Notes under the pieces: model-generated | The model's database searches: none | What the model saw: the letters and a program-made list of their open reading frames with translations, nothing else | Told to the model about the DNA's origin: nothing | Origin: Carcharhinus longimanus | Lineage: Eukaryota | Reading direction: 5' to 3' | DNA length: 64,000 nt | NCBI GenBank assembly: GCA_030264375.1 | Contig: JASCQW010000190.1 | Span: forward strand, 51,994,078 to 52,058,077 | Translations under genes and position numbers: made by a program | Shown here: positions 29,865 to 46,515 of the stretch, piece after piece | Layout of the letters: the number at the start of each line of letters is the position of its first letter | Position numbering within the stretch: position 1 is the first letter of the stretch

Positions 29865-31487
29865 AACAAGAACAAGGAAAGGTACAGTACAGTAACAGGC
29901 CCTTCAACCCTCCAAGCCTGTGCCAATCATAATGCCCGAACAAAACTAAAGAAAAGGCCTTCTGCCCTTACTTGGTCCGTATCCCTCTATTTCCTCCCTA
30001 TTCATGTACTCATCCAGATGCCTCTTAAATGTTACAAATGTGTCTACTTCCACCACCTCCTCTGGCAGCACGTTCCAGACACCCACCATTCTCTACCTGA
30101 AAACTTCCCCCACACATCTCTCTTAAACTTTCCCCTTTTCATCTTGAATCTGTGCTCCCTTGTAGTTGACACATTCACCCTTGGAAAAAGCCTCTGACTA
30201 TCGACCCTTGGGAAAAAAAAACCTGATTTATCCACCCTTGGAAAAAAACCCCTGACTTATCCACCCTATCCATACTGTCATAATTCGTAGACTTTTATCA
30301 GGTCTCCCGTCAGCCTCTGTCTTTTCAATGAAAACAGTCCTAGTTTATTCAACTTCTCCTCATAGCCAATACCGTCGAGACCAGGCAACATCCTGATGAA
30401 CCTTCTTTGCACTCTCTCCAAAGTTTCCATGCCCTTCTGGCAGTGTGGTGACCAGAACTGCACACAATACTCCAAATGCAGCCTAACCATGGTTTTATAT
30501 AGCTGCAAAATGATTTCCCAATGCCCTGGCTGAAGAAGGCAAGCATGCCATTTGCCTTTTTAATCACCTTGACCACCTGTGTTACCACTTTTAGATAAAT
30601 GTGAACCTGCACGCCCAGATCCCTCTGTATGTTAATGTTCTTAAGGGTTCTGCCATTTACAGTATAATTCACACCTAAATTTAATCCTCCAAAATCACAT
30701 TTGTCTGGATTAAACTCCATCTGCCATTTCTGTGCCCAAGTTGGAGGGGCATGGTAGCACAGTGGTTAGCACTGCTGCTTCACAGCTCCAGGGTCCTGGG
30801 TTTGATTCCCAATTTGGGTCTCTGTCTGCGTGGAGTTTGCACATTCTCCTCGTGTCTGTGTGGGTTTCCTCCGGGTGCTCCGGTTTCCTCCCACAGTCCA
30901 AAGATGTGCGGGTTAGGTTGATTGGCCATGCTAAAATATTGCCCCTTGGTGTCCAGGGGTGCATAGATTAGAGGGATTAGTGGGTATAATATGTAGGGAT
31001 ATGGGGATAGGGCCTGGGTGGGATTGTGTTCAATGCAGACTCGATGGGCCGAAGGGCCTCTTTCTGCACTGTAGAGTTCTATGGTTCTAAGTCTCCAATC
31101 TATCCTGTTGTATCCTTTGACAATCCCCAGCAACTCCAGCAATCTTCAGGTCATCCATAAACTTACTAATCAGACCACCCACATTTTCCTCCAGATCATT
31201 TGTATATACTACAAACAACAGAAGTCCCAACACTGATCCCTGCAGAATACCAGTAGCTACAGATCTCCATTCTGAAAAACACCCTTCCACTGTTACTCTC
31301 TGTCTCCTATGATCAAGTCAGTTCTTTATCCATCTAACCAGCCCATCTGAATCTTACATGATTTTATTTTGTACCTGTCTGCCTTGTCAAATGCTTTACT
31401 AAAGTCCATATAAACTACATCCACAACCCTTCCCTCATCAATTGTCTTTGTCACCTCTTCAAAAAATTTAATCAAATCAGTGAGACA
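29865..31487 (-). mobile_element. CR1 (HER1-like) LINE RT/3' portion, interrupted by a SINE
   Basis: Minus ORFs with QGSVLG.LLFVVYTNDLEE..SKFMDD, LYKTMVRLHLEYCVQFWSP and HRFKMKRGKF. Confidence 0.9.
30742..31090 (+). mobile_element. HE1-like tRNA-derived V-SINE with a CR1-type tail (type A), nested in CR1
   Basis: A/B box head (GGTAGCACAGTGGTTAGCAC...GGTTTGATTCC), V-domain GGGTTTCCTCCGGGTGCTCCGGTTTCCTCCCACAGTCCAAAGA, and tail ...CTGTAGAGTTCTATGGTTCTA. Confidence 0.88.
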
Positions 31488-33021: not shown

Positions 33022-33873
33022 TGTGATATTGTATGAATGAAGTAGTGGCATGATGGGAAAATTGGTCAAGCATTTAGTACAAAGGAAAACTGACTCTGCA
33101 CAACCTAAGACATGAATAAGATCAGAGAAGGCCAAATGCCCGACCTCAGTCTGTCTCGATAAGGTTGACTCCACATATCTTTAGTTTGCATATGTAGTCT
33201 TAAGGTAAGTTCAGAGATGAAAGAATCACAGAACCTTCTACTACATCAGAAAACAAGATATGGCCAGAGATCACGGAACCTTCTTGTTCCTTCAAAGGAC
33301 AAGATAATGATATTATTGATGAGACTTGTTGTTCATCCATCGTCATCGATGAGGACCTCAACACCATTAGTCATTTTGAGGATGGTTGTGGTGTGTCCGA
33401 AGACGACTGATCAGGCCAATTCGGGCACGAAATGTCCTGGCACATATTGGACAGACTTGTGTAGACACTGTAGTTGTTGCGCTGGTGGCTCTGGACTTAC
33501 GCAGCTCGCGCATAAGTTGTGCTTCAGCAATACACCTTGCTTCGTGAGCTTGACAGCCTTTGTGAGACATTGATGCAACAGAGGGGTCTCCGAGCTCACC
33601 GGGTTACAATACAATTAATGATGTTCTACTGCTTGTATTATTAATTGAATTCCTGAAGTCATGTAAGCCGATAAGAAAAAGGTATAACTATTGAATTGAT
33701 TCTTGTGGTTGGGGCGGTTTTGGGATAGAATCAGCAGTTTGTATGGACTGCTCTCTGTTTCCAAGATTCAGCCATATACTGCATGCAGTTTTGTGATAAT
33801 AAAATCTAGTTGTTTTTTCAAAGCAAACTGTTAAGTTTTACTATCACAAAACAAGAAATTCTCCACTACAACA
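33022..33873 (+). repeat. ERV 5' LTR (type A), interrupted by an RTE-type LINE fragment
   Basis: TGTGATATTG...CTACAACA, with AATAAA near 33798. Aligns to 45910-46515 apart from about 250 nt of insertion. Confidence 0.92.
33326..33568 (-). mobile_element. 5'-truncated RTE-clade LINE 3' end inside the 5' LTR
   Basis: Encodes CPICARTFRARIGLISRLRTH (degenerate C2H2 typical of RTE ORF C-termini). Has a (CAA)n tail, imperfect 11-bp TSD ATTGATGAGAC/ATTGATGCAAC, and is absent from the 3' LTR. Confidence 0.75.
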
Positions 33874-33875
33874 TT

Positions 33876-33893
33876 TGGCACTGCGAGCAGAAA
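33876..33893 (+). promoter_or_regulatory. Retroviral primer-binding site, tRNA-Ser-like
   Basis: TGGCACTGCGAGCAG lies 2 nt after the LTR CA end and resembles the complement of the tRNA-Ser(CGA) 3' end (TGGCGCTGTGAGCAGG, recalled). Confidence 0.7.
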
Positions 33894-34094
33894 CCAAAAT
33901 CCTGGGTGAATTCCGTGGGGGACTGAAGAAGTGATCGAGCCATGACTGGAGGGAAGAGACGGACGCCAGCACAAGCTAAGATTTACCTTGGTCTCTCTCT
34001 CTCTCTTGGATCGGTGTTACGACCCTTCATCCCTTGTGGAGGATGCTAACAGGTGACGGTGTTCAAATCTAAATTATACTGTGAGTCGTGGTTA

Positions 34095-34338
34095 GGGTCA
34101 GGGAGCCAGTTGTTGTCAGCCTAGGGTCAGGGATCCAACGAGTAGAGTATTTAGGATCAGGGACCCAGCGAATAAGAGTGTTCAGGGTCAGGGACCCTAT
34201 TGCAACTCACCGAAGGTCAGGGACCCCTTGATCTCTTTTAGATCCAGATCAGGGATACACAGGCTTAATTTGAGTCAGGGACCCCGTGATTTTTCTTAGT
34301 TTGGGTCAGGGACCCCATGATTTTTGGGTCAGGGACCC
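34095..34338 (+). repeat. Array of nine 13-nt GGGTCAGGGACCC hairpin repeats in the ERV leader
   Basis: Copies start at 34095, 34124, 34154, 34185, 34214, 34246, 34272, 34303 and 34326, with a period of 23-32 nt. Confidence 0.9.
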
Positions 34339-34408
34339 CGTGGTTTAATTTTGGTACCAGGAATTCTTTTTATTACCGTTTTTGCCAGGGGCATAGTATA
34401 CTGACGTT

Positions 34409-34486
34409 ATGGGACAGATCTTAGACAAGACAGGGGACAAATTCATTAAACAGATGAGGAAAGAGGGGTGGGATCCATCTCGCCCA
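34409..34486 (+). pseudogene. gag: ERV gag N-terminus (MGQILDK..., myristoylation-type MG start), cut by an assembly gap
   Basis: MGQ start located after the PBS and leader. The rest falls in the N-gap 34487-35001. Confidence 0.65.
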
Positions 34487-35049
34487 NNNNNNNNNNNNNN
34501 NNNNNNNNNNNNNNNNNNNNNNNNNNNNNNNNNNNNNNNNNNNNNNNNNNNNNNNNNNNNNNNNNNNNNNNNNNNNNNNNNNNNNNNNNNNNNNNNNNNN
34601 NNNNNNNNNNNNNNNNNNNNNNNNNNNNNNNNNNNNNNNNNNNNNNNNNNNNNNNNNNNNNNNNNNNNNNNNNNNNNNNNNNNNNNNNNNNNNNNNNNNN
34701 NNNNNNNNNNNNNNNNNNNNNNNNNNNNNNNNNNNNNNNNNNNNNNNNNNNNNNNNNNNNNNNNNNNNNNNNNNNNNNNNNNNNNNNNNNNNNNNNNNNN
34801 NNNNNNNNNNNNNNNNNNNNNNNNNNNNNNNNNNNNNNNNNNNNNNNNNNNNNNNNNNNNNNNNNNNNNNNNNNNNNNNNNNNNNNNNNNNNNNNNNNNN
34901 NNNNNNNNNNNNNNNNNNNNNNNNNNNNNNNNNNNNNNNNNNNNNNNNNNNNNNNNNNNNNNNNNNNNNNNNNNNNNNNNNNNNNNNNNNNNNNNNNNNN
35001 NGTCACTGGGAAAACTCCAGCCCTGGAGTGCAAATGCCAAATTTTGGTA

Positions 35050-36040
35050 TTATAATCGTCTCACAAGATATTTATGGTATTAGATATAGTTAATGAGTTC
35101 TGGTCCATCCCCTTGAACTTTAATTCACGGGATACATTTGTCTTCACAATAGGCGATAAGCAGTATACATGGACTGGACTCCCACAGGGATTCCGTAATA
35201 ACTTGGTCGTATTTCACCAAGCAATGAGCAATTTCTAGAACAACTGGAACTCCCTAAAGGGAGCACAATCTTACAGTATGTAGATGATATTTTGATAGCC
35301 TTTGAAACTAAAGTGGAACTTCGATCTTGAAGCACTTAGAAGATCAAGGGTTAAAGGCAAATCTGGAAAAGGTCCAATTAGGAAAGGTGTTATATCTGGG
35401 ACATTTAATATCCCAACGGATCAAGGAGTTGCCCGTGGACAGGAAAGCCATCATATAGTAAATGCCTAGGCTGGTGACCTTCTGAGGGGTAAGAAAGATT
35501 TTGGATTTATTTAATTATAGCTGCAACTTTATGCCAGAATTTGCTAAATTGGCTAAGCCAATGAGAAGGGCGAAGTGGGAGGCAGTGCTTCCCCCCCCCC
35601 CTTCATTGTATGAGACATGAGAGAAAACCCCGCTGAAGGAAGGTTAGATGAAGGAAGACCACATACATGTGGGAATGTGGATGAGGGAGCAGAGGAAAGT
35701 AGAATAAGGGAGGTGTCCCTGGAGGCACCAGAGAAGACCCTGTTTGTGGATGGGTCACGGAAGTATATAGATGGGTCACCATGAATGGGATGGACCTACA
35801 AGTGGTCTGAACGGGAAGAGTAGAGGGAGATATGTCAGCACAAGTGGCAGAACTGGTAGCCCTGACATAGGCTTTTACTGAGTTGCTGGGAGAACATTTA
35901 TACTGATAGTGGATATGTATTTGGAATTGTGCATGACTATATGACTGTTTGAGGGAGAAGGGGATTTGTCACAACATGAGGCACCTAAATCAAACATGGC
36001 CAGATTTATTAGAGGCCACTGAGCTCCCATCAGTAAAGGG
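35050..36040 (+). pseudogene. pol: ERV pol lineage 1: degraded RT and RNase H
   Basis: Hand translation gives LDIVNEFWSIPL, QYTWTGLPQGF, QYVDDILIA, VLYLGH, then LFVDGS, SAQVAELVAL, YTDSGYVFG and IKHG, with stops, frameshifts and a deletion in the connection region. Confidence 0.85.
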
Positions 36041-37644
36041 TTAAAAAGGATCAAGCAGGCTGACTCTGTATGGTAGAGACAGAGAGAGAGGGCATAATTG
36101 TGCAATCGAGAGCCTCATGTGGTGTAGTAGGGTATAGCCAATCAAAGTGAATTGCTTCAAATTTAATAAATTACGTAGGGATCGGACAGAGATTTGAGCT
36201 CTGCCATGTGGGAAAGGTGGCATTACATTACATCTGAAAAGTTATAAGGAGAATTAACCATTTAGGCACACAGTAGATTTGATTTTGTACTTGCCTGTGT
36301 TGTTTACAAAGGCAGAGCTGTAGAAATAATTAATCATGTAGATTGCTGCACATCAGAATGCTTTCAGTATTTCTTTGTGCATCTGTGCTCCAAGTGATAA
36401 GATCCAGTTGTGTGCTCTTGTGAAACTTTTTTTTACTGTGCCAGAATTGTAAGAATGTGCAAGTGTCTTAATTTAGTAGGGATATTTAAAGGTGATAAAA
36501 ATAGACCTTATTTTGCATTTTCTGGATCAGACTTTTGTTAATTTAAAAATGTGTTCTTGCTAGAACTGACAATGAAAGAATTATTCCTAAGTGTTTGAAG
36601 AGTCCATCTGAGTGAACTTACTCCCCCCACCCTTCTGCTGAAACAAGTGGAGAATCAACCCATTCTGTATCAGACAGAATGTATCTTGGTGTTGTAAGAC
36701 TTGCAGTAATTTTGGGACATAAAGTCAAAAAAAACTAACAGAAAAGGGAGTTATATAAGGTAGAATAAGTGCGTGTGTTTAAAACGTGTGCAAGTAGTGA
36801 ATCAACTACAAACCTGGAGTAGAGCTGATCACAAAGCACACTCTGTTGTAATCTTAGTTTTTGTATTTCAGTGTGTTTGTGTGGTCTGGTCATTTGTCTT
36901 TTGTGAAATATTTATTGCGGCATTAAATACAATGCTTTACATTTCAGTTTCAACATCAAAGCGGCTGAGAAATTGTTAAACTGTTAAGATTTCTTGAATT
37001 TACTTCTGTTTTGAGTTTAATTAGTTTGGAAGAAAGACGAATGAAGATGACTTTACTCATTTTAGAATGCATGTTGGAAGCCTCCATGCGTTTCCGTGTG
37101 TGTTTAATAAAGGGGTTGCGTAGCTATTTCCTTATTATTTGCTTTAATGTTCTTCCCCTAATTGTGATTTTACAACAGTACGTTTGATACAGAGTTTAAA
37201 TAAAAATTGGAAAGTAAATTGAAGTTTAAGAAATGATGTAGACCTTGGAGGGAACCATGCGCTCCTTCCTTTGTCTTGAAGTAGAAATTACGCGAGAGTT
37301 AATTGAGAAGTTAAGAGAATAAGTAACTTTGTGGAAAGAGTCGACTAGGCACCACAAACAATCATTATTAATAAGTTAGAGGGTTAATGCACGTAGAAGA
37401 GGGATTGAGGTATGTGCAGATGGGAAGTCAAAGGATTGGGAAACTTTGAAATTGGAATGTGAACTTTGGGAAAGGAAACATGATGACATGAAAAGACAGG
37501 TAGAGGGCATGAAGCCATTGGCTGATGGGCTAGCCCAACCTGCCTATCAAGTTAAACAACAGGAGGATCCTCCCAGTTGCCCTGGCATGCTGCTGTTTCT
37601 CTATTCACGCAATACAGAGGGAAGAGGACCCCTAGACCTTCCCT

Positions 37645-39035
37645 TTCTTTGGGTTAAAAATCTCCTTGATGCTGTTCAGCTTCCTTGTCAATTGGCTGTT
37701 ACTAAAAGTGTTGCACATACGAAAGGGGACATTCCTGTGCAATTAGGGAATGCCTGTGCTGATTCAGCTGCCAAGGCGGCAGACGAAACAGCATCCGTGA
37801 TTGTTCCCACTGGGGGTAATCAGGCTCTAAACTGGGTACCTGCATTAGGGACTAAGAGCATGCCAGCGATAACTGAGGTTCAGTGTTTACAGAGGGGCGT
37901 CTCTGATTCTGAGCGCACACTATGGAAGTCACTGGGGTATTCATACTCCTTGGCATGGGACCTCTGGCTTACTCCAGTTGGTCAAGTTTGTATTCTGGAT
38001 TCTTTATTATCGGTATTTACTGACTATTTACATTCTTGTACCCATCTTGGCAAGGAGGGAATGGGACAGCTACTTCTAAAAACTTGGTGGCACCCAGAGT
38101 TGAATACAGCAGTGCAAAAGTGGCTGGATCGATGCCTTATTTGCATGAAAAATAATAAGGGTAAAGGTATTAAATGCCCTCTTGGAACCACTTCCTTGCC
38201 AGATGGTCCTTTTGCCTGTATACAGCTTGGTGTTATTGAATTACCAAAAGTACATTGCTATGAACATTGTTTAGTAATAATCGATGTGTTTAGTAAATAG
38301 ATTGAAGCCTTCTCCACCAGGAATTGGACTGCACATACGGTGGTGAACTTGTTGTTGACAGAAGTTATTCCCCGTTTTGGGGTACCCAAAATGGTGAGCT
38401 CAGATAATGGACCACGTTTTGTGGCCCCGATCAACACTGAATTGTGCGATGCACTCATAATTAAAGAACAACTGCACTGCGCGTATCACCCACAGGCAGC
38501 AGGAATTGTGAAAAGGGCTAATGGAACTTTAAAAGAAAAATTATCTAAATTGACTGAAGAAACTGGATTAAATTGGCTAAAGGTATTGCCCTTGGCATTG
38601 CTTCACATGCATTGATTCCCCATTTGCGGACCGGACTGTCAACTGCAGAGATAGTCTATGGTCGGCCAATGAGGACTCCCTGGAACGCCCATGAGAAATC
38701 CCTGGAGGGAGTAGACCTCCATGTGATGGGTGAAACAGATGCAGAATTATTTGAAGCAATTAACACTTTCTCTGAAGTTTCTCCACTCCTTGGTAAAACA
38801 GGCACATGTCCTAGTGACAGCAGGGAGAACCACCTTTCGATACCCCATGATCGAACCCAGAGACTACGTATTGGTGAAGAACTAGGATAGGAAGAAATTA
38901 GGACAACGCTGGATCGATCCTTTTCAAGTGCTACTGACAACACCGACTTCAGTCAAGCTTGACGGACGTTGAAGTTGGGTTCATCTGTCCGATTGAAAGA
39001 AGATTATATCTAACCCAGATACAAATAGAAGATGA
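37645..39035 (+). pseudogene. pol: ERV pol lineage 2: RNase H C-terminus and integrase (copy 1)
   Basis: LLDAVQLP..AHTKG..GNACAD, HHCC (HSCTHLG...CLIC), SSDNGP, YHPQAAGIV.RANGTLK, and a GPY/F-like C-terminus. Stops are present. Confidence 0.9.
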
Positions 39036-40063
39036 AGATCCTCATTATAGTTTTCGGACTTTGTGGACAATTTGGACTTAATGGACACATGGTAGTAAAA
39101 AAACGAGTTACCCAAAGTCTGTATGCTAATACTTATTTATTTATGTCATATATGTATGCTGAAAAATTGAATATAAGCAAGTGTTGGGTTTGCACCCACA
39201 TCCCCGTCCATTCGAGGGAAGGAATACCTCTCCAATCCCTCCAATTCTATATAGCAGAAACAGTTGAATGGATTCTATGTCAAAACCGAACTGGGATGGG
39301 GGAGATATGATAAAATGGAAATCGACTGGCTATGAAATGACTAGGTTTTCAGCTTGGTACCAGCCTACTTATAATCATGCCTTGCTTCCACCCTCCTTTA
39401 TTATCCCCTTGAATAATGTGTGAGGTTCCCTATGTTTTAGTAAATCAGATAAAGGAAAATGGATGGGGCAAAGTAGATGCAACCTTACAGCTGAGTGGCA
39501 AGGACCAGTAGCAAACCTATTGACCAAGGGTATATTTTTTCTTGATTGGTCTGGGGTATGGAATATAACCTCCAATAGCTTGTGGGCACATACATCCCCA
39601 ACACCCTGGATGACATTGGCTCATGATTTTATGGCCTATAATGGAACAACTGACAAATGCAATAGCAGCAGAAGCCAGGACAACTGGACAGGCACTGGCC
39701 GAAGTCATGGCTGAGCTGGTGGCTGTCCGGACCATGGCATTACAAAATCGACTGGCTTTGGATTATCTGTTAGCCTCGCAGGGAGGAACGTGCGCCATTG
39801 TAGATCAGGAATACTGTACTTATATCCCAGATGCCTCTGAAAATATCACCAACCTGGCTGACCATATTAAGAGACAGGCTGCTCAAATTCAAGAGATTGG
39901 CTGTGAATTTCTTGACTACGACCCACTGGGTTGGTTGGGATGGTTGGGTCACGGATTATTTGATTGGATTTTTAAGGCCTTCATGCTACTGCTACTGGGG
40001 ATAGGATTGCTTGGTTGCTTGTGTAAATGCATTTTTAATCAGGTCATGGATATACCTATTTAA
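39032..40063 (+). pseudogene. env: ERV env copy 1 (gamma-type, internally deleted, frameshifted)
   Basis: Signal peptide, CWVC motif, ISD LQNRLALDYLL, degenerate CX6CC (CAIVDQEYC) and TM helix. No furin site or fusion peptide. Confidence 0.9.
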
Positions 40064-40094
40064 TTAGTTGTCATGATATGACAAAAAGAGGGAA

Positions 40095-40664
40095 TGTGAA
40101 GTTGTATGAATGAAGTAGCGGCATGATGGGAAAATTGGTCAAGTATTTGGTACAAAATAAGGAAAACTGACTTTGCATAACCTAAGACATGAATAAGACC
40201 AGAGAAGGTTAAGCTGTGCCTAACCTTGGTAAGACCTGATAAGGCTGACTCGACGTGACCTAGAGCTGGATAACAAGATAAGGTCAGGGATGAAGGAGTC
40301 ATCAACCTTCTTCTGTTCTATCAAAGGACAAGATAAAGATATGACTGATGAGACAAAGAGTTCTGGGAGGTCTGCAGGCTGTACCATGATTTATGACATT
40401 GCTTATTACGCTATTACTGATCAAATTCCTCAATAAGCTCTGGTCATCCAAACAGATAATGATTATGTATAAATACTGAACTGATTCTTTATGTTAGGGT
40501 GGACTTGAGGAAGAATCAGCAAGTCGTAATGACGGTTCTCTGAACTCAAGTTTTTGCCAATACTGCATGCAGTCTTTCGTAAATAAAGACAAGTTATTTT
40601 GTTGGAACGGACTTTTTGAGTCTTTCTACCACAGTCAAGAAGCAGGAAGATTTCCACTTCAACA
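40095..40664 (+). repeat. Internal 3'-type LTR (type B, related but distinct subfamily) preceded by a PPT
   Basis: PPT AAAAAGAGGGAA at 40083-40094, then TGTGAAGTTG...CTTCAACA, with TATAAATA near 40468 and AATAAA near 40582. No PBS follows. Confidence 0.85.
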
Positions 40665-41229
40665 CTACCACTACACCAGAAGACTGCCTTGGACATTTAC
40701 TGCACCGTATCAATTTTACGATTAATAGATTTGTAATTATTAACAAGGTTTTTCAATGGGTATCTTGATGAAACAATCTTTAAAAATGATATATTGGTAA
40801 GGAGAAAATGAGGAATTTGGAGATTAAAATGATCATTTTTAACTAATTAACCACTCTTTTATAATCTGTGATTTTATGTGTGGAAGTTGAGAAAAAAAAA
40901 TTATTTTCCTTGTTTAATAATTCAAGAGAAAAGACAACAACAATACTGTCAATTTTTAGAGTGTCCCTGAATTTTAAGAAGTATTGCTAAAGGGATTATC
41001 AGTAGACTTTGGGATTTTCTACCTTCTGACATAATTAAATTAATCACTAGATGCTAGACACCAATTCAGCGTCCATCACCAAGATGAGACAGATAAATGA
41101 CATACGTATGAAATGATTGATAATTCATGATGCAATAAATGATTGGAGTTAGTTCCTTGGTCTTCAGAATCCAATATAGTGCTAAACAATCTTCATGCTG
41201 TAATACAAGGCATATGCCTTATCTGATCC

Positions 41230-43020
41230 CATCTTGTTTATTAGACTTATTTCCTGTTCCATCAAACCTGTTAACACTAAACTGCTGATCACCCAACTTC
41301 CCCTCCTGGCTCCCCTGTTAGCTGATATTATTAATGGATCTCACTCTTCAGGTATTGTTCCTCTGTCCTTTCAATCTGCCACCATCATCCTCTATTTAAG
41401 GAACCAATCCTTAACAGCACCATCCTTGAAAACTACTACCCAATCTCCAACGTCCCTCTCTTCTTCAAAGTTCTTGAACATGTTTTCGACTCCAAAATCT
41501 GTTCCCATTTTTCCCAGAATTGCGGATTTGAATCCTCTAATCAGGTTTCCGTCCCTGCCACAGTAGCAAGATCACAAATAACATCCTATTTGATAGTGAC
41601 AAAGGTAAATTTTCCCTCCTTGGCCTTCTCGACCTTCCATAAACTTTGACATTATAGAAGCCATTGTTGTCTTTACATTTGCAGAGAAGGGGACTTATAA
41701 TATTTGTCTTAAGTTGGTGGGGCATAGGATGTTCCTAAATCAAAACGTAGTTTCTTGTTTGTTTCAAGCTGAGCCACACCTAGTGAGAATTAACCAAGAA
41801 GGGCAGTAGTAAAAAATATAACATTTTGAAAGCAGCTCATTTGTAATCCTGGCGCAATTACAGTTTCTTGATCAGCATTATCATCAACAACGCTATCATC
41901 ATCTGTTAACATCATTAAATCAACAGCATCTTCATTATTATCAACAAATCAACATCATCTTCATCACCATCATCTCATACACATACCAATTGACTTTAAT
42001 TTATGACACAATAAAGAAACAATACGAATGCAACTGTGCAAAGCAAATATCAAATAACTTATTGATGTTCGAATTTAAGAATCTCCACCCATGTGTCAGC
42101 TACCGTTGTAAGTAAATAAATCTCCTGTTTTTCAATGTTCAGGAAGTCTAAATGCCTGGAATTACTCTTAAATTTTCTTACATTGAGCCAAAGTGGCAGA
42201 GTGGTTAGCACTGCGGCCTCACAGCATCGAAATACGCATTCAATTCCAGCTTTGGGTGACTGTGTGGAGTTTGTATGTTCTCCCCATGTCTGTGTGACTT
42301 TCCTCCAGGTGCTTCAGTTTCCTCCCACAGTCCAAATATATGTAGGTTAAGGGGATTAGCGTAGTGGGGTTAAGGGAAGCGGGGTGTTGGTCTGTGTATG
42401 ATGCTCTATTGGGAGTTGGTGCAGACTCGATAGGTCAAATGGCCTTCTTCTGCACTCCAGGCTCTATGAATCTAAGTATAACAACTTAATGGTGAATCAT
42501 GAAACCTTAGCTTAAGGAACTCAAACCAACTAAGGAATGATGTAATTGCTTTGCTTTTGCTACAGAACAGCCATAGATAGAGTTGATCACACCATTGCTC
42601 TCTTCCAATGCTTCTCCACTGTCGTCCATTTGGGCGGGACTGGTCTCAAGTGTCTCCATTTTTATCTATCAAATCGTTGACAAAGAATCACTTGCCACAG
42701 CTTTGCTTCTTGTCTTGCCTGACATCTCGGTGTCTCCCAAGGATCAATCCTTGGCCCCTCCTATTTCTCGGCTACAAGCTGAGATCATCTGAAGTAAAGC
42801 AATAATTTTCACATGTATGCTGATGACGACAATCTCTACTTCACCACCACCTATTTTGACTCCACCATTGTTGCTAAATTATCAGACCAATGAGCAGAAT
42901 TACCTCCCATTAAATATTTACAATATTAAAATCATTGTTTTCAGCTCCTGTGCCAAATTATTTCACTATTGGCTCCATCCCTCTCCTTGGCAACAGTCTG
43001 AGATTAAGCCAATCTGTTTG
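41230..43020 (+). mobile_element. Degraded L2-type LINE RT in two pieces (about 41230-41640 and 42575-43020) with intervening insertions
   Basis: LAPLLADIINGS..SGIVP..F.SA, then LLDL, (V)DH, PQGSILGPLLF and HMYADD motifs with frameshifts. Confidence 0.6.
42190..42475 (+). mobile_element. V-SINE, type A tail
   Basis: Head, V domain and CR1-like tail. Confidence 0.8.
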
Positions 43021-43254
43021 TATCTTTGATATCACAAATGTGTCACCAAGTTTTGTCAATCTGGCTTAATAGGGACGTTCTTACTGTTGTGCCCAGATGG
43101 GCAGGGCGAGTAGGTAAGATTGCAAGTGAGCTGGAAAGTCAGATTTGCACCCGATTTCTCATCTCTTGCAATCTTACCAGTACCGGATGTGCTGCACGAT
43201 CAGCCTCATGCCCATTTATTTAATTAATTCATTAAATTCATTGTAATGGTGATT

Positions 43255-43575
43255 TGGCAGCACAGTGGCACAGTGATTAGCACTGCTGCCTCACACTGTC
43301 AGGGACCCAGGTTCAATTCCAGCCTCGGGTCAGTGTCTGTGTGGGGTTTGCACTTTCTCCCCTTGTCTTGTGGGTTTCCTCTGGGTGGTCTGGTTTCCTC
43401 CCACAGTCCAAAGATGTGCAGGTTAGGTTGATTGTCCATGTTAAATTGGCCCTAGTGTCAGGGGATTAGCTGGGTAAATGAGAGTTACAGGAATAAGGCC
43501 TGTGCGGGATTGTGGTTGGTACAAACTTGATGGGTCAAATGGCCTTCTTCTGTACTATAGAGATTCTATGAATGA
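43255..43575 (+). mobile_element. V-SINE, type A tail (an inverted type A tail follows at about 43640-43775)
   Basis: Head, V domain and tail. A reverse-complement tail lies before the gap. Confidence 0.8.
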
Positions 43576-43875
43576 AATCAGTGAGCCCAGGACTCAATCT
43601 CCAGGCTCACTCGCCTGTGTGGCCTCGCCATGGGAAGTTCTGAACCATATTACGGAACCCTACAGTGCAGAAAGAGGCCCTTTGGCCCATTGAGTCTACA
43701 CCAAACACAATCCCACCCAGGACCTATCCCCATGTCCTTACATATTATACCTACTAATCCCTCTAACCTATGCATNNNNNNNNNNNNNNNNNNNNNNNNN
43801 NNNNNNNNNNNNNNNNNNNNNNNNNNNNNNNNNNNNNNNNNNNNNNNNNNNNNNNNNNNNNNNNNNNNNNNNNNN

Positions 43876-44741
43876 TTAAATGCCGTCCCGGAACCACTCC
43901 CTTGCCAGATGGCCCTTTTGCCTGTATACAGCTTGATTTTACTGAATTACCAGAAGTACATTGCTATATATATTGTTTAGTAATAATCGATGTGTTTAGT
44001 AAATGGATTGAAGCCTTCCCCACCAGGAATTGTACTGCACATATGGTGGTGAAATTATTGTTGACAGAAGTTATTCCTCGTTTCGGGGTACCCAAAATGG
44101 TGAGTTCAGATAATAGACCACATTGTGTGGCCCGGATCAATACTGAATTGTGCGAAGCACTTGTAATTAAACAACAACTGCACTGCATGTATCACCTGCA
44201 GGCAGCAGGAACTGTGGAAAGGGCTAACAGGACTTTAAAAGAAAAATTATCTAAATTGACTGAAGAAACTGGATTAAATTGGCTAAAGCTATTGCCCTTG
44301 GCATTGTTTCACACGCGAGTGATTCCCCACTTGTGGACTGGACTGTCAGCTGCAGAGATAGTCTACGGTCAGCCAATGAGGACTCCCTGGGATGCCCATG
44401 AAAAACCCTACAGGGAGTAGACCTCCAGGTAATGGGGGAACAGATGCAGAATTATTTGAAGCAACTAACACTTTCTCTGAAGTTTCTCCACTCCTAGGTG
44501 AAACAAGCACATCTCCCAGAGACACCGGGGACAGCCACCTCTCGATACCAAAATGATCGAACCCGGAGACTACGTATTGGTAAAGAACTGGAATAGGAAG
44601 AAATTAGGACAACGCTGGAGTGGTCTTTTTCAAGTGCTACTGACAATACCGACTTCTGTCAAGATTAAAGGACGTTCAAGTTGGGTACACTTGTCCAATT
44701 GTAAGAAGATTACATCCAACCCAGATACGAATAGAAGATGA
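43876..44741 (+). pseudogene. pol: ERV integrase (copy 2)
   Basis: ORFs 43770..44420 and 44553..44741 (QLDFTELP, IDVFSKWIEAFP, SSDN, ERANRTLK). Paralogous to 38170-39035. Confidence 0.9.
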
Positions 44742-45878
44742 AGATCCTCATCATATTTTTCCAACTTTGTGGACTATTTGGACTTAATGGACATGTGATA
44801 GTAAAAAAACGAGTTACCCAAAGACCGCATGCTAATACTTATTTATATATGTCATATATGTATGCTGAAAAATTGAATATAAGCAAATATTGGGGTTGTA
44901 CCTACATCCCCATCCATTCATGGGAAGGAATACCTCTCCAATCCCTCCCATTCCATATAGCAGAGACAGCTGAATGGATTCTATGTCAAAACCAAACAGG
45001 AATTGGGGGAGATATGATAAAATGGAAATCGGCTGGCTATGAAATGACTAGGTTTTTAGCTTGGTACCAGCCTACTTATAATCATGCCTTGCTTCCATCC
45101 TCCCCTATTGTCCCCTCAAGTGATGTGCGAGGTTCTCTATGTTTTAGTAAATCAGGGAAAGGAAAGTTAATGGGGCAAAGTAGATGCAACCTTACAGCTA
45201 AGTGGCACGGACCAGTAGCAAATCTATCTAGCAAGGGTATGTTTATTTTTGATTGGTCCAAAGAGCTAACTTCCAATAGCTCGTGGGCACATCCCCAACA
45301 TCCTGGATGACACTGGCTGATGATTTTACAGCCTATAATGGAACAACAGCAGAAGCCAAGGCGACTGGACAGGCACTAGCCGAGGTCTTGGCTGAGCTGG
45401 TGGCTGTTCAGACCGTGGCATTACAAAACCGAATGGCTTTGGACGATCTATTAGCCTCGCATGGAGGGACGTGTGCTATTATAGGTTAGGAGTGCTGCAA
45501 TTATATCCCAGATGCCTCTGAAAATATCACTAACCTGGCCAGCTACATTAGGAGGCAGGCTGATCAACTTCAAGAGGTTGGCCGGGAATTTCATTCCCAG
45601 AAAGCGGGAAAGTGGATTTGATCCACTTCAGATCAGCCACGATCTTAATGAATGGCGAGGCAGGCTCGAAGGGCTAGCTGGCTTACTCCTGCTCCTATTT
45701 CTTATGTTCTTATGTTCATGATTATAACCCACCGGGTTGGTTAGGATGTTTGGGTCACAGATTATTCGGTTGGATCTTTAAGACTTTTATTTTGCTACTA
45801 TTACTGTTACTTGGGATAGGATTGCTTGGTTGCTTGTGTAGATGCATTATTAATTGAGTCACGGATATACCTATTTAG
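44738..45878 (+). pseudogene. env: ERV env copy 2 (defective; open 190-aa SU fragment, TM broken by a stop and a CR1 insertion)
   Basis: ORF 44738..45310 is homologous to copy 1. ISD LQNRMALDDLL is followed by a TAG inside the CX6CC motif. Confidence 0.88.
45595..45714 (+). mobile_element. Short CR1 3'-end insertion in env copy 2
   Basis: CR1-type 3' UTR with a (TTCTTATG)n tail and TTCAT duplicated at 45590-45594 and 45715-45719. Absent from env copy 1. Confidence 0.8.
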
Positions 45879-45909
45879 TTAGTTGTCATGATATGACAAA
45901 AGGAGGGAA

Positions 45910-46515
45910 TGTGATATTGTACGAATGAAGTAGTGGCATGATGGGAAAATTGGTCAAGTATTTGGTACAAAGGAAAACTGACTCTGCATATTCTAAGACA
46001 TGAATAAGACCAGAGAAGGCCAAATACCTGACCTCAGTCTGTTTTGGTAAGGTTGACTCCACACACCCTAAGTCTACATACGCAAAACAAAGATAAGGTC
46101 AGAGATGAAAAAGACACAGAACCTTCCATTACATCAGAAAACAAGGTATGGTCAGAGATCATGGAACCTTCTTGTTCCTTCAACAGACAAGATAATGATA
46201 TTATTGATGAGACAGAGGGTCTCGGAGGTCACCGGGTTACAATACAATTAATGATGTATTACTGCTTGTATTACTAATTGAATTCCTGAAGTCATGTAAG
46301 CTGATAAGGAAAAGGTATAACTATTGAATTGATTCTTGTAGTTGGGGCAGTCTTGGTATAGAATCAGCAGTTTGTACGGACTGCTTTCTCTTCTCAAGAT
46401 TCAGCCATATACTGCATGCAGTTTTGTGATAATAAAAGCTAGTTGTTTTTTCAAAGCAAACTCTGTTAAGTTTTACTATCACAGCTCAGAAAACAAGAAA
46501 TTCTCCACTACAACA
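45910..46515 (+). repeat. ERV 3' LTR (type A)
   Basis: PPT AAAAGGAGGGAA at 45898-45909, TG...CA ends, followed by the TTGC TSD. Confidence 0.93.

What the first reader, a model, noticed from the sequence alone, without database searches (positions are those of the whole stretch)
34095..34338. Regularly interspaced hairpin array (9 x GGGTC-AGG-GACCC) in the retroviral packaging region
Seen: nine 13-nt repeats at about 30-nt periodicity with largely different 10-19-nt spacers, between the PBS and the gag ATG. The consensus is a perfect 5-bp stem with an AGG triloop. The TCAGGGA core is invariant in all nine copies, and one variant (GGGTC/GATCC) keeps pairing through a G-U wobble. Established: this interval carries psi/dimerisation stem-loops with G-rich loops that bind nucleocapsid. 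Inference: a multimerised NC-binding or dimerisation module that might give a defective, non-autonomous genome a packaging advantage. Repeats far more conserved than their spacers argue for selection rather than simple slippage.
Basis: partly seen in the sequence, partly recalled or inferred. Interest (0 to 1): 0.7.

Follow-up and report, generated by a model that had tools for sequence, protein, structure and literature searches.

The report
Expandable hairpin cassette in shark retrovirus
A family of old shark retroviruses carries 2 to 12 copies of a short fold-back repeat just before its gag gene, and a sister family carries a different fold-back repeat at the same place; the cassette likely helped pack the viral RNA into particles, but that role is untested.

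Summary
The nine repeats are real and far beyond chance. They sit 3' of the major splice donor and before gag in a class I (gamma/epsilon-like) endogenous retrovirus of a cartilaginous fish.

Only 3 of 9 stems are perfect, and copy 6 is the arm of a different 9-bp hairpin with a palindromic loop. Across 31 paralogs the spacers fall into recurring classes that are about as conserved as the repeats. Unit number varies from 2 to 12 by tandem duplication, and compensatory changes are nearly absent.

New evidence still favours selected RNA hairpins. A sister family has an array at the same position with a tRNA T-loop-like loop and stems that covary between unit types. In this family the first base is usually free of G where the neighbouring hairpin takes its partner (20 of 27, against 9 of 133 elsewhere).

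Most copies lack the family's own reverse transcriptase, and the window's copy is a recombinant. A packaging/dimerisation role is likely but untested. Leader repeat arrays are known (ZFERV), and this scan reported a T-arm-type array in another genome.

The parts
33022..33873 (+). 5' LTR (TG...CA)
   Evidence: 91% identical (543 of 597 aligned) to the LTR at 45910-46515 and 75% to the LTR at 40095-40661; the same 4 bases TTGC flank 33022 and 46515, a likely target-site duplication
33876..33893 (+). Primer-binding site, tRNA-Ser type
   Evidence: complementary to the 3' end of ARAGORN-called tRNA-Ser(AGA) genes in this genome
33972..33990 (+). Major splice-donor motif inside a 6-bp hairpin, shared with sister families; altered at 33976 in this copy
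   Evidence: paralog comparison; a 20-nt pattern gave 57 genome hits against 2 for the control. Splicing itself was not observed.
34095..34338 (+). Array of 13-nt quasi-palindromic units (8 true units plus copy 6)
34226..34254 (+).
   Evidence: 94.6% of 297 cells paired in 33 aligned modules, no double changes; RGATCY in 29 of 34 loop hexamers scored
34409..34486 (+). gag start; switches near 34434 to gag-like sequence of another ERV family
   Evidence: paralog L002 matches L151 from the equivalent point; contig loose ends at 34434 in six runs
34487..35001 (.). Assembly gap, 515 N
   Evidence: close in length to the matching stretch of paralog L002
35002..35562 (+). Broken RT piece related to the L151 family, not to this family's RT
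   Evidence: 74% to L151, no match to L063; RVT_1 hits on the paralog L002
36032..37281 (+). Segment shared with sequence inside sister-family loci
   Evidence: 74-94% to L054 and L060
37647..38900 (+). RNase H end and integrase, interrupted by stops
   Evidence: Integrase_H2C2 and rve; 83-86% to L063
39032..40063 (+). env remnant
   Evidence: TLV_coat E 6e-9
45910..46515 (+). LTR that most likely pairs with the 5' LTR

Best explanation
The array is a variable-length cassette of short fold-back units in the leader of a shark class I endogenous retrovirus, lying between the major splice donor and gag, and it likely worked at the RNA level as the multivalent part of the packaging and dimerisation signal. 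Shown: position, unit shuffling and copy-number change (2-12), a usually single palindrome-loop hairpin among the units, and a sister family with a different repeated hairpin at the same place. Inferred: units were duplicated and deleted by reverse-transcriptase template switching between repeats, which also homogenises the repeat along the array. Selection in the replicating virus would have kept each unit able to pair and to present unpaired guanosines next to U-rich linkers for the Gag zinc knuckle. The palindrome-loop hairpin would start dimer contact, and the interchangeable arms would allow register shifts, as in MoMuLV. Recombination of this leader onto another family's gag implies co-packaging, so the cassette likely let defective genomes ride on helper Gag.
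For: Position: the first unit lies a median 124 nt (this family, F1) and 130 nt (sister family, F2) after the shared donor hairpin, and before the gag start. All 31 F1 loci scored have at least 2 units. F2 stems covary across unit types: 44 cells changed on both sides against 27.1 +/- 3.5 in shuffles, 0 of 500 shuffles as high, and slid controls lower. Own flanks fold at -7.3 kcal/mol against -5.6 +/- 0.13 for swapped flanks. In F1, base 1 is non-G in 20 of 27 units followed by the 9-bp hairpin, which takes base 13, against 9 of 133 others. After the same upstream spacer ending it is G in 0 of 19 versus 12 of 13, and three different bases occur. Tandem duplication of unit plus spacer is visible in L002, L004, L017, L028 and L110. 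One frame of locus L063 shows a CCHC knuckle. Only one place has RT above 67% identity to F1 RT among 150 of 588 candidates scored, while integrase lies about 0.3-1.6 kb from the leader in at least 9 copies (coordinates). MoMuLV precedent: pseudopalindromes shift register on dimerisation and NC binds a G after pyrimidines (PMC7599994).
Against: No functional or RNA-level data. Within F1, only 2 of 640 stem cells are double changes and pair-breaking changes outnumber wobbles. Equilibrium folding does not favour the local hairpin: P>0.5 for 16 of 160 F1 units and 42 of 281 F2 units in whole leaders, and 64 of 160 and 118 of 281 with a 30-nt span limit. The window's leader folds no better than shuffles (z 0.22 and -0.64). 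Predicted dimer gain is not above shuffles (mean z -0.2 and 0.06, 9 loci each). Nine of 34 loop hexamers are AGATCC, with only a 4-base palindromic core. F2 covariation rests on about three inherited changes, not 44 events, and 9 of the 12 G cases in the matched F1 comparison come from one locus (L110). F2 units fold as well antisense as sense. F1 and F2 spacers share no excess 7-mers (4 vs 7.3 expected), so homology of the two arrays rests on position only. A family that exchanged gag with F1 (L151) has no such array.
Confidence: 0.55

Rival explanations
1. Nearly neutral tandem expansion: a fold-back motif that makes reverse transcriptase pause and switch template is duplicated and homogenised, and copy number drifts.
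For: Copy number 2-12 with perfect tandem runs. Spacers are about as conserved as repeats across paralogs. Substitutions ignore pairing. An unrelated ERV in this genome has a 40-nt A-rich tandem array in its leader.
Against: It does not explain unit-specific complementary stems in F2, the release of base 1 beside the 9-bp hairpin, or why no scored F1 copy has fewer than two units.
Confidence: 0.17
2. DNA-level array of host factor sites acting as an enhancer or insulator in the provirus, like the gypsy 5' UTR repeat. F1 units contain an RGGTCA nuclear-receptor-type half-site and F2 units a B-box-like sequence (both motifs recalled, not from a call).
For: The anatomy (short core, AT-rich spacers, between LTR and gag) matches the gypsy insulator (PMC3286476 passages). 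The base-1 A variant gives AGGTCA. F2 units show no sense-strand folding bias.
Against: The two families would need unrelated factors at the same place. 98 of 281 F2 units have A at the position matching tRNA C56, while 262 of 281 keep T54 and A58. Covarying flanking stems are not expected for a double-stranded site.
Confidence: 0.13
3. RNA element for host proteins that sets the balance of spliced to unspliced RNA, export or gag translation, for example G-triplets downstream of the donor (known role recalled) or T-arm mimicry as in the brome mosaic virus replication enhancer.
For: The array begins about 120 nt 3' of the donor and each F1 unit has two GGG runs. The F2 core equals the T-arm core of this genome's tRNA-Ser. 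A viral T-arm mimic that is modified in vivo is known (PMC13191261 passage).
Against: GGG pairs are not general in F2, the F1 loop fails the T54/A58 pattern, and no splicing data were found.
Confidence: 0.15

Closest known systems
MoMuLV core encapsidation signal (DIS-1, DIS-2/SL-B, SL-C, SL-D, UCUG linkers; PMC7599994, passages and section 4.2.1 read)
   Same: Class I retrovirus leader before gag; several short hairpins; pseudopalindromes able to shift register; pyrimidine-rich runs ending in G beside stems; a CCHC knuckle in Gag
   Different: The MoMuLV elements described there are distinct hairpins of fixed number; here one unit is repeated 2-12 times and shuffled. No binding or dimer data exist for this family.
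ZFERV repeat region (517 bp, 9 direct repeats; PMC3382231, passages read; its leader position is recalled, the original paper was not held)
   Same: Fish class I ERV with a block of direct repeats outside the ORFs
   Different: Units average about 57 bp; no hairpin core with variable spacers is reported in the passages seen; the sequences could not be compared.
gypsy 5' UTR tandem-repeat insulator and other LTR-retrotransposon UTR repeats (PMC3286476, passages read)
   Same: Repeat array between LTR and gag
   Different: Acts as DNA through a host protein; no evidence for that here, and sister-family stems covary as RNA hairpins would.
Brome mosaic virus RNA3 intergenic T-arm mimic (PMC13191261, passage read)
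   Same: The sister family's loop resembles a tRNA T-loop in a viral cis element
   Different: One element in a plant RNA virus; the window's own repeat is not a T-loop.
CmiERV lineages II/III of elephant shark (PMC4422223, part 1 of 2 read)
   Same: Epsilon-like ERVs of cartilaginous fish
   Different: Leader not described in the part read; membership not tested by a tree.

Membership tests
Class I (gamma/epsilon-like) ERV | LTR-PBS-gag-pro-pol-env-LTR layout | tested here: met
   RVP, RVT_1, RNase_H and rve in paralog L063; integrase and TLV_coat in the window; LTRs
Class I (gamma/epsilon-like) ERV | RT closest to MLV among solved RTs | tested here: met
   MMLV RT E 3e-34; Pr125Pol-type chains 5e-18 to 2e-15; HIV 1e-7
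Epsilonretrovirus or a CmiERV lineage | Pol tree placement with WDSV/WEHV | not tested
   no reference sequences fetched; nearest named proteins are shark, ray and teleost records
Retroviral packaging signal (psi) | In the 5' leader, 3' of the major donor, before gag | tested here: met
   the donor is identified by motif and conservation only
Retroviral packaging signal (psi) | Conserved RNA hairpins with covariation | tested here: inconclusive
   met in sister family F2; not met inside F1 apart from the base-1 pattern; ensemble folding is mixed
Retroviral packaging signal (psi) | Self-complementary dimer-initiation loop | tested here: inconclusive
   RGATCY in 29 of 34 loops, 20 fully self-complementary with G-U allowed; no dimer gain above shuffles
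Retroviral packaging signal (psi) | Binds Gag/NC and directs encapsidation | not testable with these tools
   needs bench work
tRNA T-loop mimic | 7-nt loop with U54 and A58 closed by G-C | tested here: not met
   the window's repeat has G at the A58 position; the sister family meets it in 262 of 281 units
Known Rfam family | Reaches a gathering score | tested here: not met
   3 loci searched; 2 matches, both far below gathering
gypsy-type DNA insulator | Host protein binding and enhancer blocking | not testable with these tools
   anatomy only

The most novel reading that the evidence does not exclude
A tunable, portable packaging cassette: one dimer-initiation hairpin plus a freely expanding run of Gag-binding hairpins, whose loop was rewritten across every unit between sister lineages (AGG triloop versus tRNA T-loop mimic), and which let deleted, recombinant genomes hitch-hike on several helper retroviruses.
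Probability: 0.25. Interest if true: 0.72.

Novelty: new variant of a known kind. Interest (0 to 1): 0.45.

Why it matters
The packaging reviews searched here do not cover packaging signals of fish and shark class I retroviruses. A signal built from one repeated unit, with natural 2- to 12-copy variants and two loop versions, is a ready dose-response series for how many binding sites select a genome. It also shows concerted evolution of a cis element. If the cassette is neutral, it is still a clean record of template-switch duplication.

Tried and rejected
Alternative register (3' arm of one unit with the 5' arm of the next, spacer as upper stem): it folds as well as or better than the triloop (-6.4 to -9.0 class means for short spacers, against -5.8), but real spacers are no better than shuffled (mean z +0.3; 23 of 70 better) and mean P is 0.08 against 0.14. 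Not supported.

Self-dimer energy was not above shuffles. Spacer homology between F1 and F2 was not supported, and two registers for aligning their cores score alike, 0.59 and 0.55. A donor-like motif at about 34081, first suspected, was dropped for the better conserved one at 33972. G-quadruplex was rejected by inspection because paired GGG runs are not general in F2.

Metagenome scan: 12 matches, none with a comparable array or an RT hit. Of 40 stretches upstream of more distant RT hits, two held F2-type arrays (L146, L152), one a different leader array (L142), and the rest none that I could place in a leader; many had gaps.

Expression: no RNA holder listed. Contigs of guessed-RNA runs cover parts of the leader but show no splice joint, and RNA status is unproven. 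Rfam gave nothing. The original ZFERV and SSSV papers were not held. Alignment A1 has one mis-referenced row of 78 (L086), left in the count, and used only the units with the bulge next to the upper stem.

Full report
Observation. Nine 13-nt repeats start at 34095-34326 with spacers of 10-19 nt, and all nine carry TCAGGGA. In 5000 Markov resamples no 7-mer reached more than 5 non-overlapping copies. An independent run holds 33907-34276 with 5 other letters, so the array is not an assembly artefact. But only 3 of 9 stems are perfect, 1 has a G-U pair, 5 have mismatches, and 2 do not fold alone. The window's leader folds no better than shuffles.

Context. The array belongs to a class I ERV of a cartilaginous fish: RT is closest to MMLV among solved structures, and the nearest named proteins are from sharks, rays and teleosts. 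The order is LTR 33022-33873, tRNA-Ser-type PBS, a splice-donor motif in a 6-bp hairpin at 33972-33990 that is altered in this copy, the array, then gag at 34409. The copy is a mosaic. Gag switches near 34434 to another family's sequence, the RT piece matches that family, and 36032-37281 matches sister-family loci. Only one place in the genome has RT above 67% identity to this family's RT among 150 of 588 candidates scored, and integrase lies within about 1.6 kb of the leader in at least 9 copies. Most copies are therefore internally deleted. One frame of one locus shows a CCHC knuckle.

Paralogs (family F1). The leader search gave 63 matches. I scored 31 loci that have the donor region and readable sequence after it, leaving out duplicates, contig ends, gaps and loci without the donor. 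They hold 160 units, 2-12 per leader, median 5. Spacers recur: 104 of 129 fall into 10 classes, and unit-plus-spacer blocks are duplicated in tandem. Within a class, spacers differ between loci by 0.11-0.23 per site, repeats by 0.03-0.16, and the unrepeated donor region by 0.155. Substitutions in the repeat look neutral: at pairs 2-3, 19 are A-C and 10 are G-U, and 2 of 640 cells are double changes. Recombinant-gag copies do not have significantly more units (p=0.12).

Two structural signals remain in F1. First, copy 6 is the 3' arm of a 9-bp hairpin (34226-34254), usually present once per leader. It is 94.6% paired in 33 aligned modules with only one-sided changes, and its loop ends in RGATCY in 29 of 34 hexamers scored. 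Second, that hairpin uses base 13 of the preceding repeat, and there base 1 is non-G in 20 of 27 units against 9 of 133 elsewhere, with A, C and T all seen. This is what a constrained 1-13 pair predicts, though the counts share ancestry. The conserved motif also extends upstream as Y-T-W before the first G.

Sister family (F2). Elements with about 50-55% integrase identity share the donor hairpin and carry, at the same distance, 2-13 copies of a different unit with a 7-nt T-loop-like loop (39 of 45 loci scored, 281 units). Their flanks are complementary in a unit-specific way. Own flanks fold at -7.3 against -5.6 kcal/mol for swapped flanks. In 77 distinct rows, 44 cells are changed on both sides against 27.1 in shuffles, 0 of 500 as high; about three inherited changes underlie this. 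T54 and A58 are kept in 262 of 281 units, and 98 have A at position 56. Whether the F1 and F2 units share an ancestor is open: position agrees, spacer words do not, and two registers fit equally. F1 shows no unit-specific outer stems.

Results against the hairpin model. Local hairpins have P>0.5 for 16 of 160 F1 and 42 of 281 F2 units in whole-leader ensembles, and about 40% with a 30-nt span. The arms are mostly paired but in mixed registers. Dimer gain is not above shuffles. A family that exchanged gag with F1 lacks the array. An unrelated ERV has a plain tandem array in its leader.

Mechanism. Shown: position, modular turnover, covarying stems in F2, the base-1 pattern, and mosaic non-autonomous genomes. 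Inferred: template switching drives turnover; selection in the virus kept pairable units with exposed guanosines; the palindrome-loop hairpin starts dimer contact; and Gag binds the array multivalently. MoMuLV gives the model, with register-shifting pseudopalindromes and NC bound to a G after pyrimidines, not to isolated hairpins (PMC7599994, passages and section 4.2.1). I put this at 0.55, neutral expansion at 0.17, host RNA regulation at 0.15 and a DNA element at 0.13.

Known work. ZFERV has a 517-bp block of 9 direct repeats (PMC3382231, passages). UTR repeats and the gypsy insulator are known (PMC3286476, passages). A viral T-arm mimic is known (PMC13191261, passage). Shark ERV papers seen do not describe leaders (PMC4422223 part 1 of 2; PMC4977317 passages). 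PMC12789967, PMC13736810 and PMC2717909 (passages) added nothing on such arrays. Six searches found no description of a short-hairpin array in a shark ERV leader. Subscription papers, Repbase and Dfam were not searchable, and the original ZFERV and SSSV papers were not held. This scan noted a T-arm-type leader array in another genome (e1-7858707), seen after I had found F2. That note is not independent support, and a look-up by the window's own sequence found nothing.

Verdict. A real feature and a new variant of a known kind. Interest 0.45.

Noticed in passing
L142:2017-2680 (G000:C53238): An unrelated ERV with a long intact-looking gag frame has about ten A-rich 40-nt tandem units 3' of a donor-like motif, like the ZFERV repeat region.
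   Followed up: partly
window 33022-46515: The outer LTR pair with a likely 4-bp target duplication encloses a second, different LTR (40095-40661), host repeats and a second integrase-env block: a nested insertion, a recombinant or a scaffolding join.
   Followed up: partly
window 33326-33564: Extra block of about 240 nt in the 5' LTR, absent from the matching LTR and 90% alike to a stretch of L036.
   Followed up: no
L073, L078, L086, L101: Leaders with the same donor hairpin and T-loop-type array use three different PBS types.
   Followed up: partly
window 34215-34222 (runs X21, X22, one study): Contigs show a family copy with clustered G-to-A changes in one unit; paralogs in this genome show no general G-to-A excess over C-to-T.
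   Followed up: no
window 30173-30267: Three 29-nt tandem units outside the provirus.
   Followed up: no
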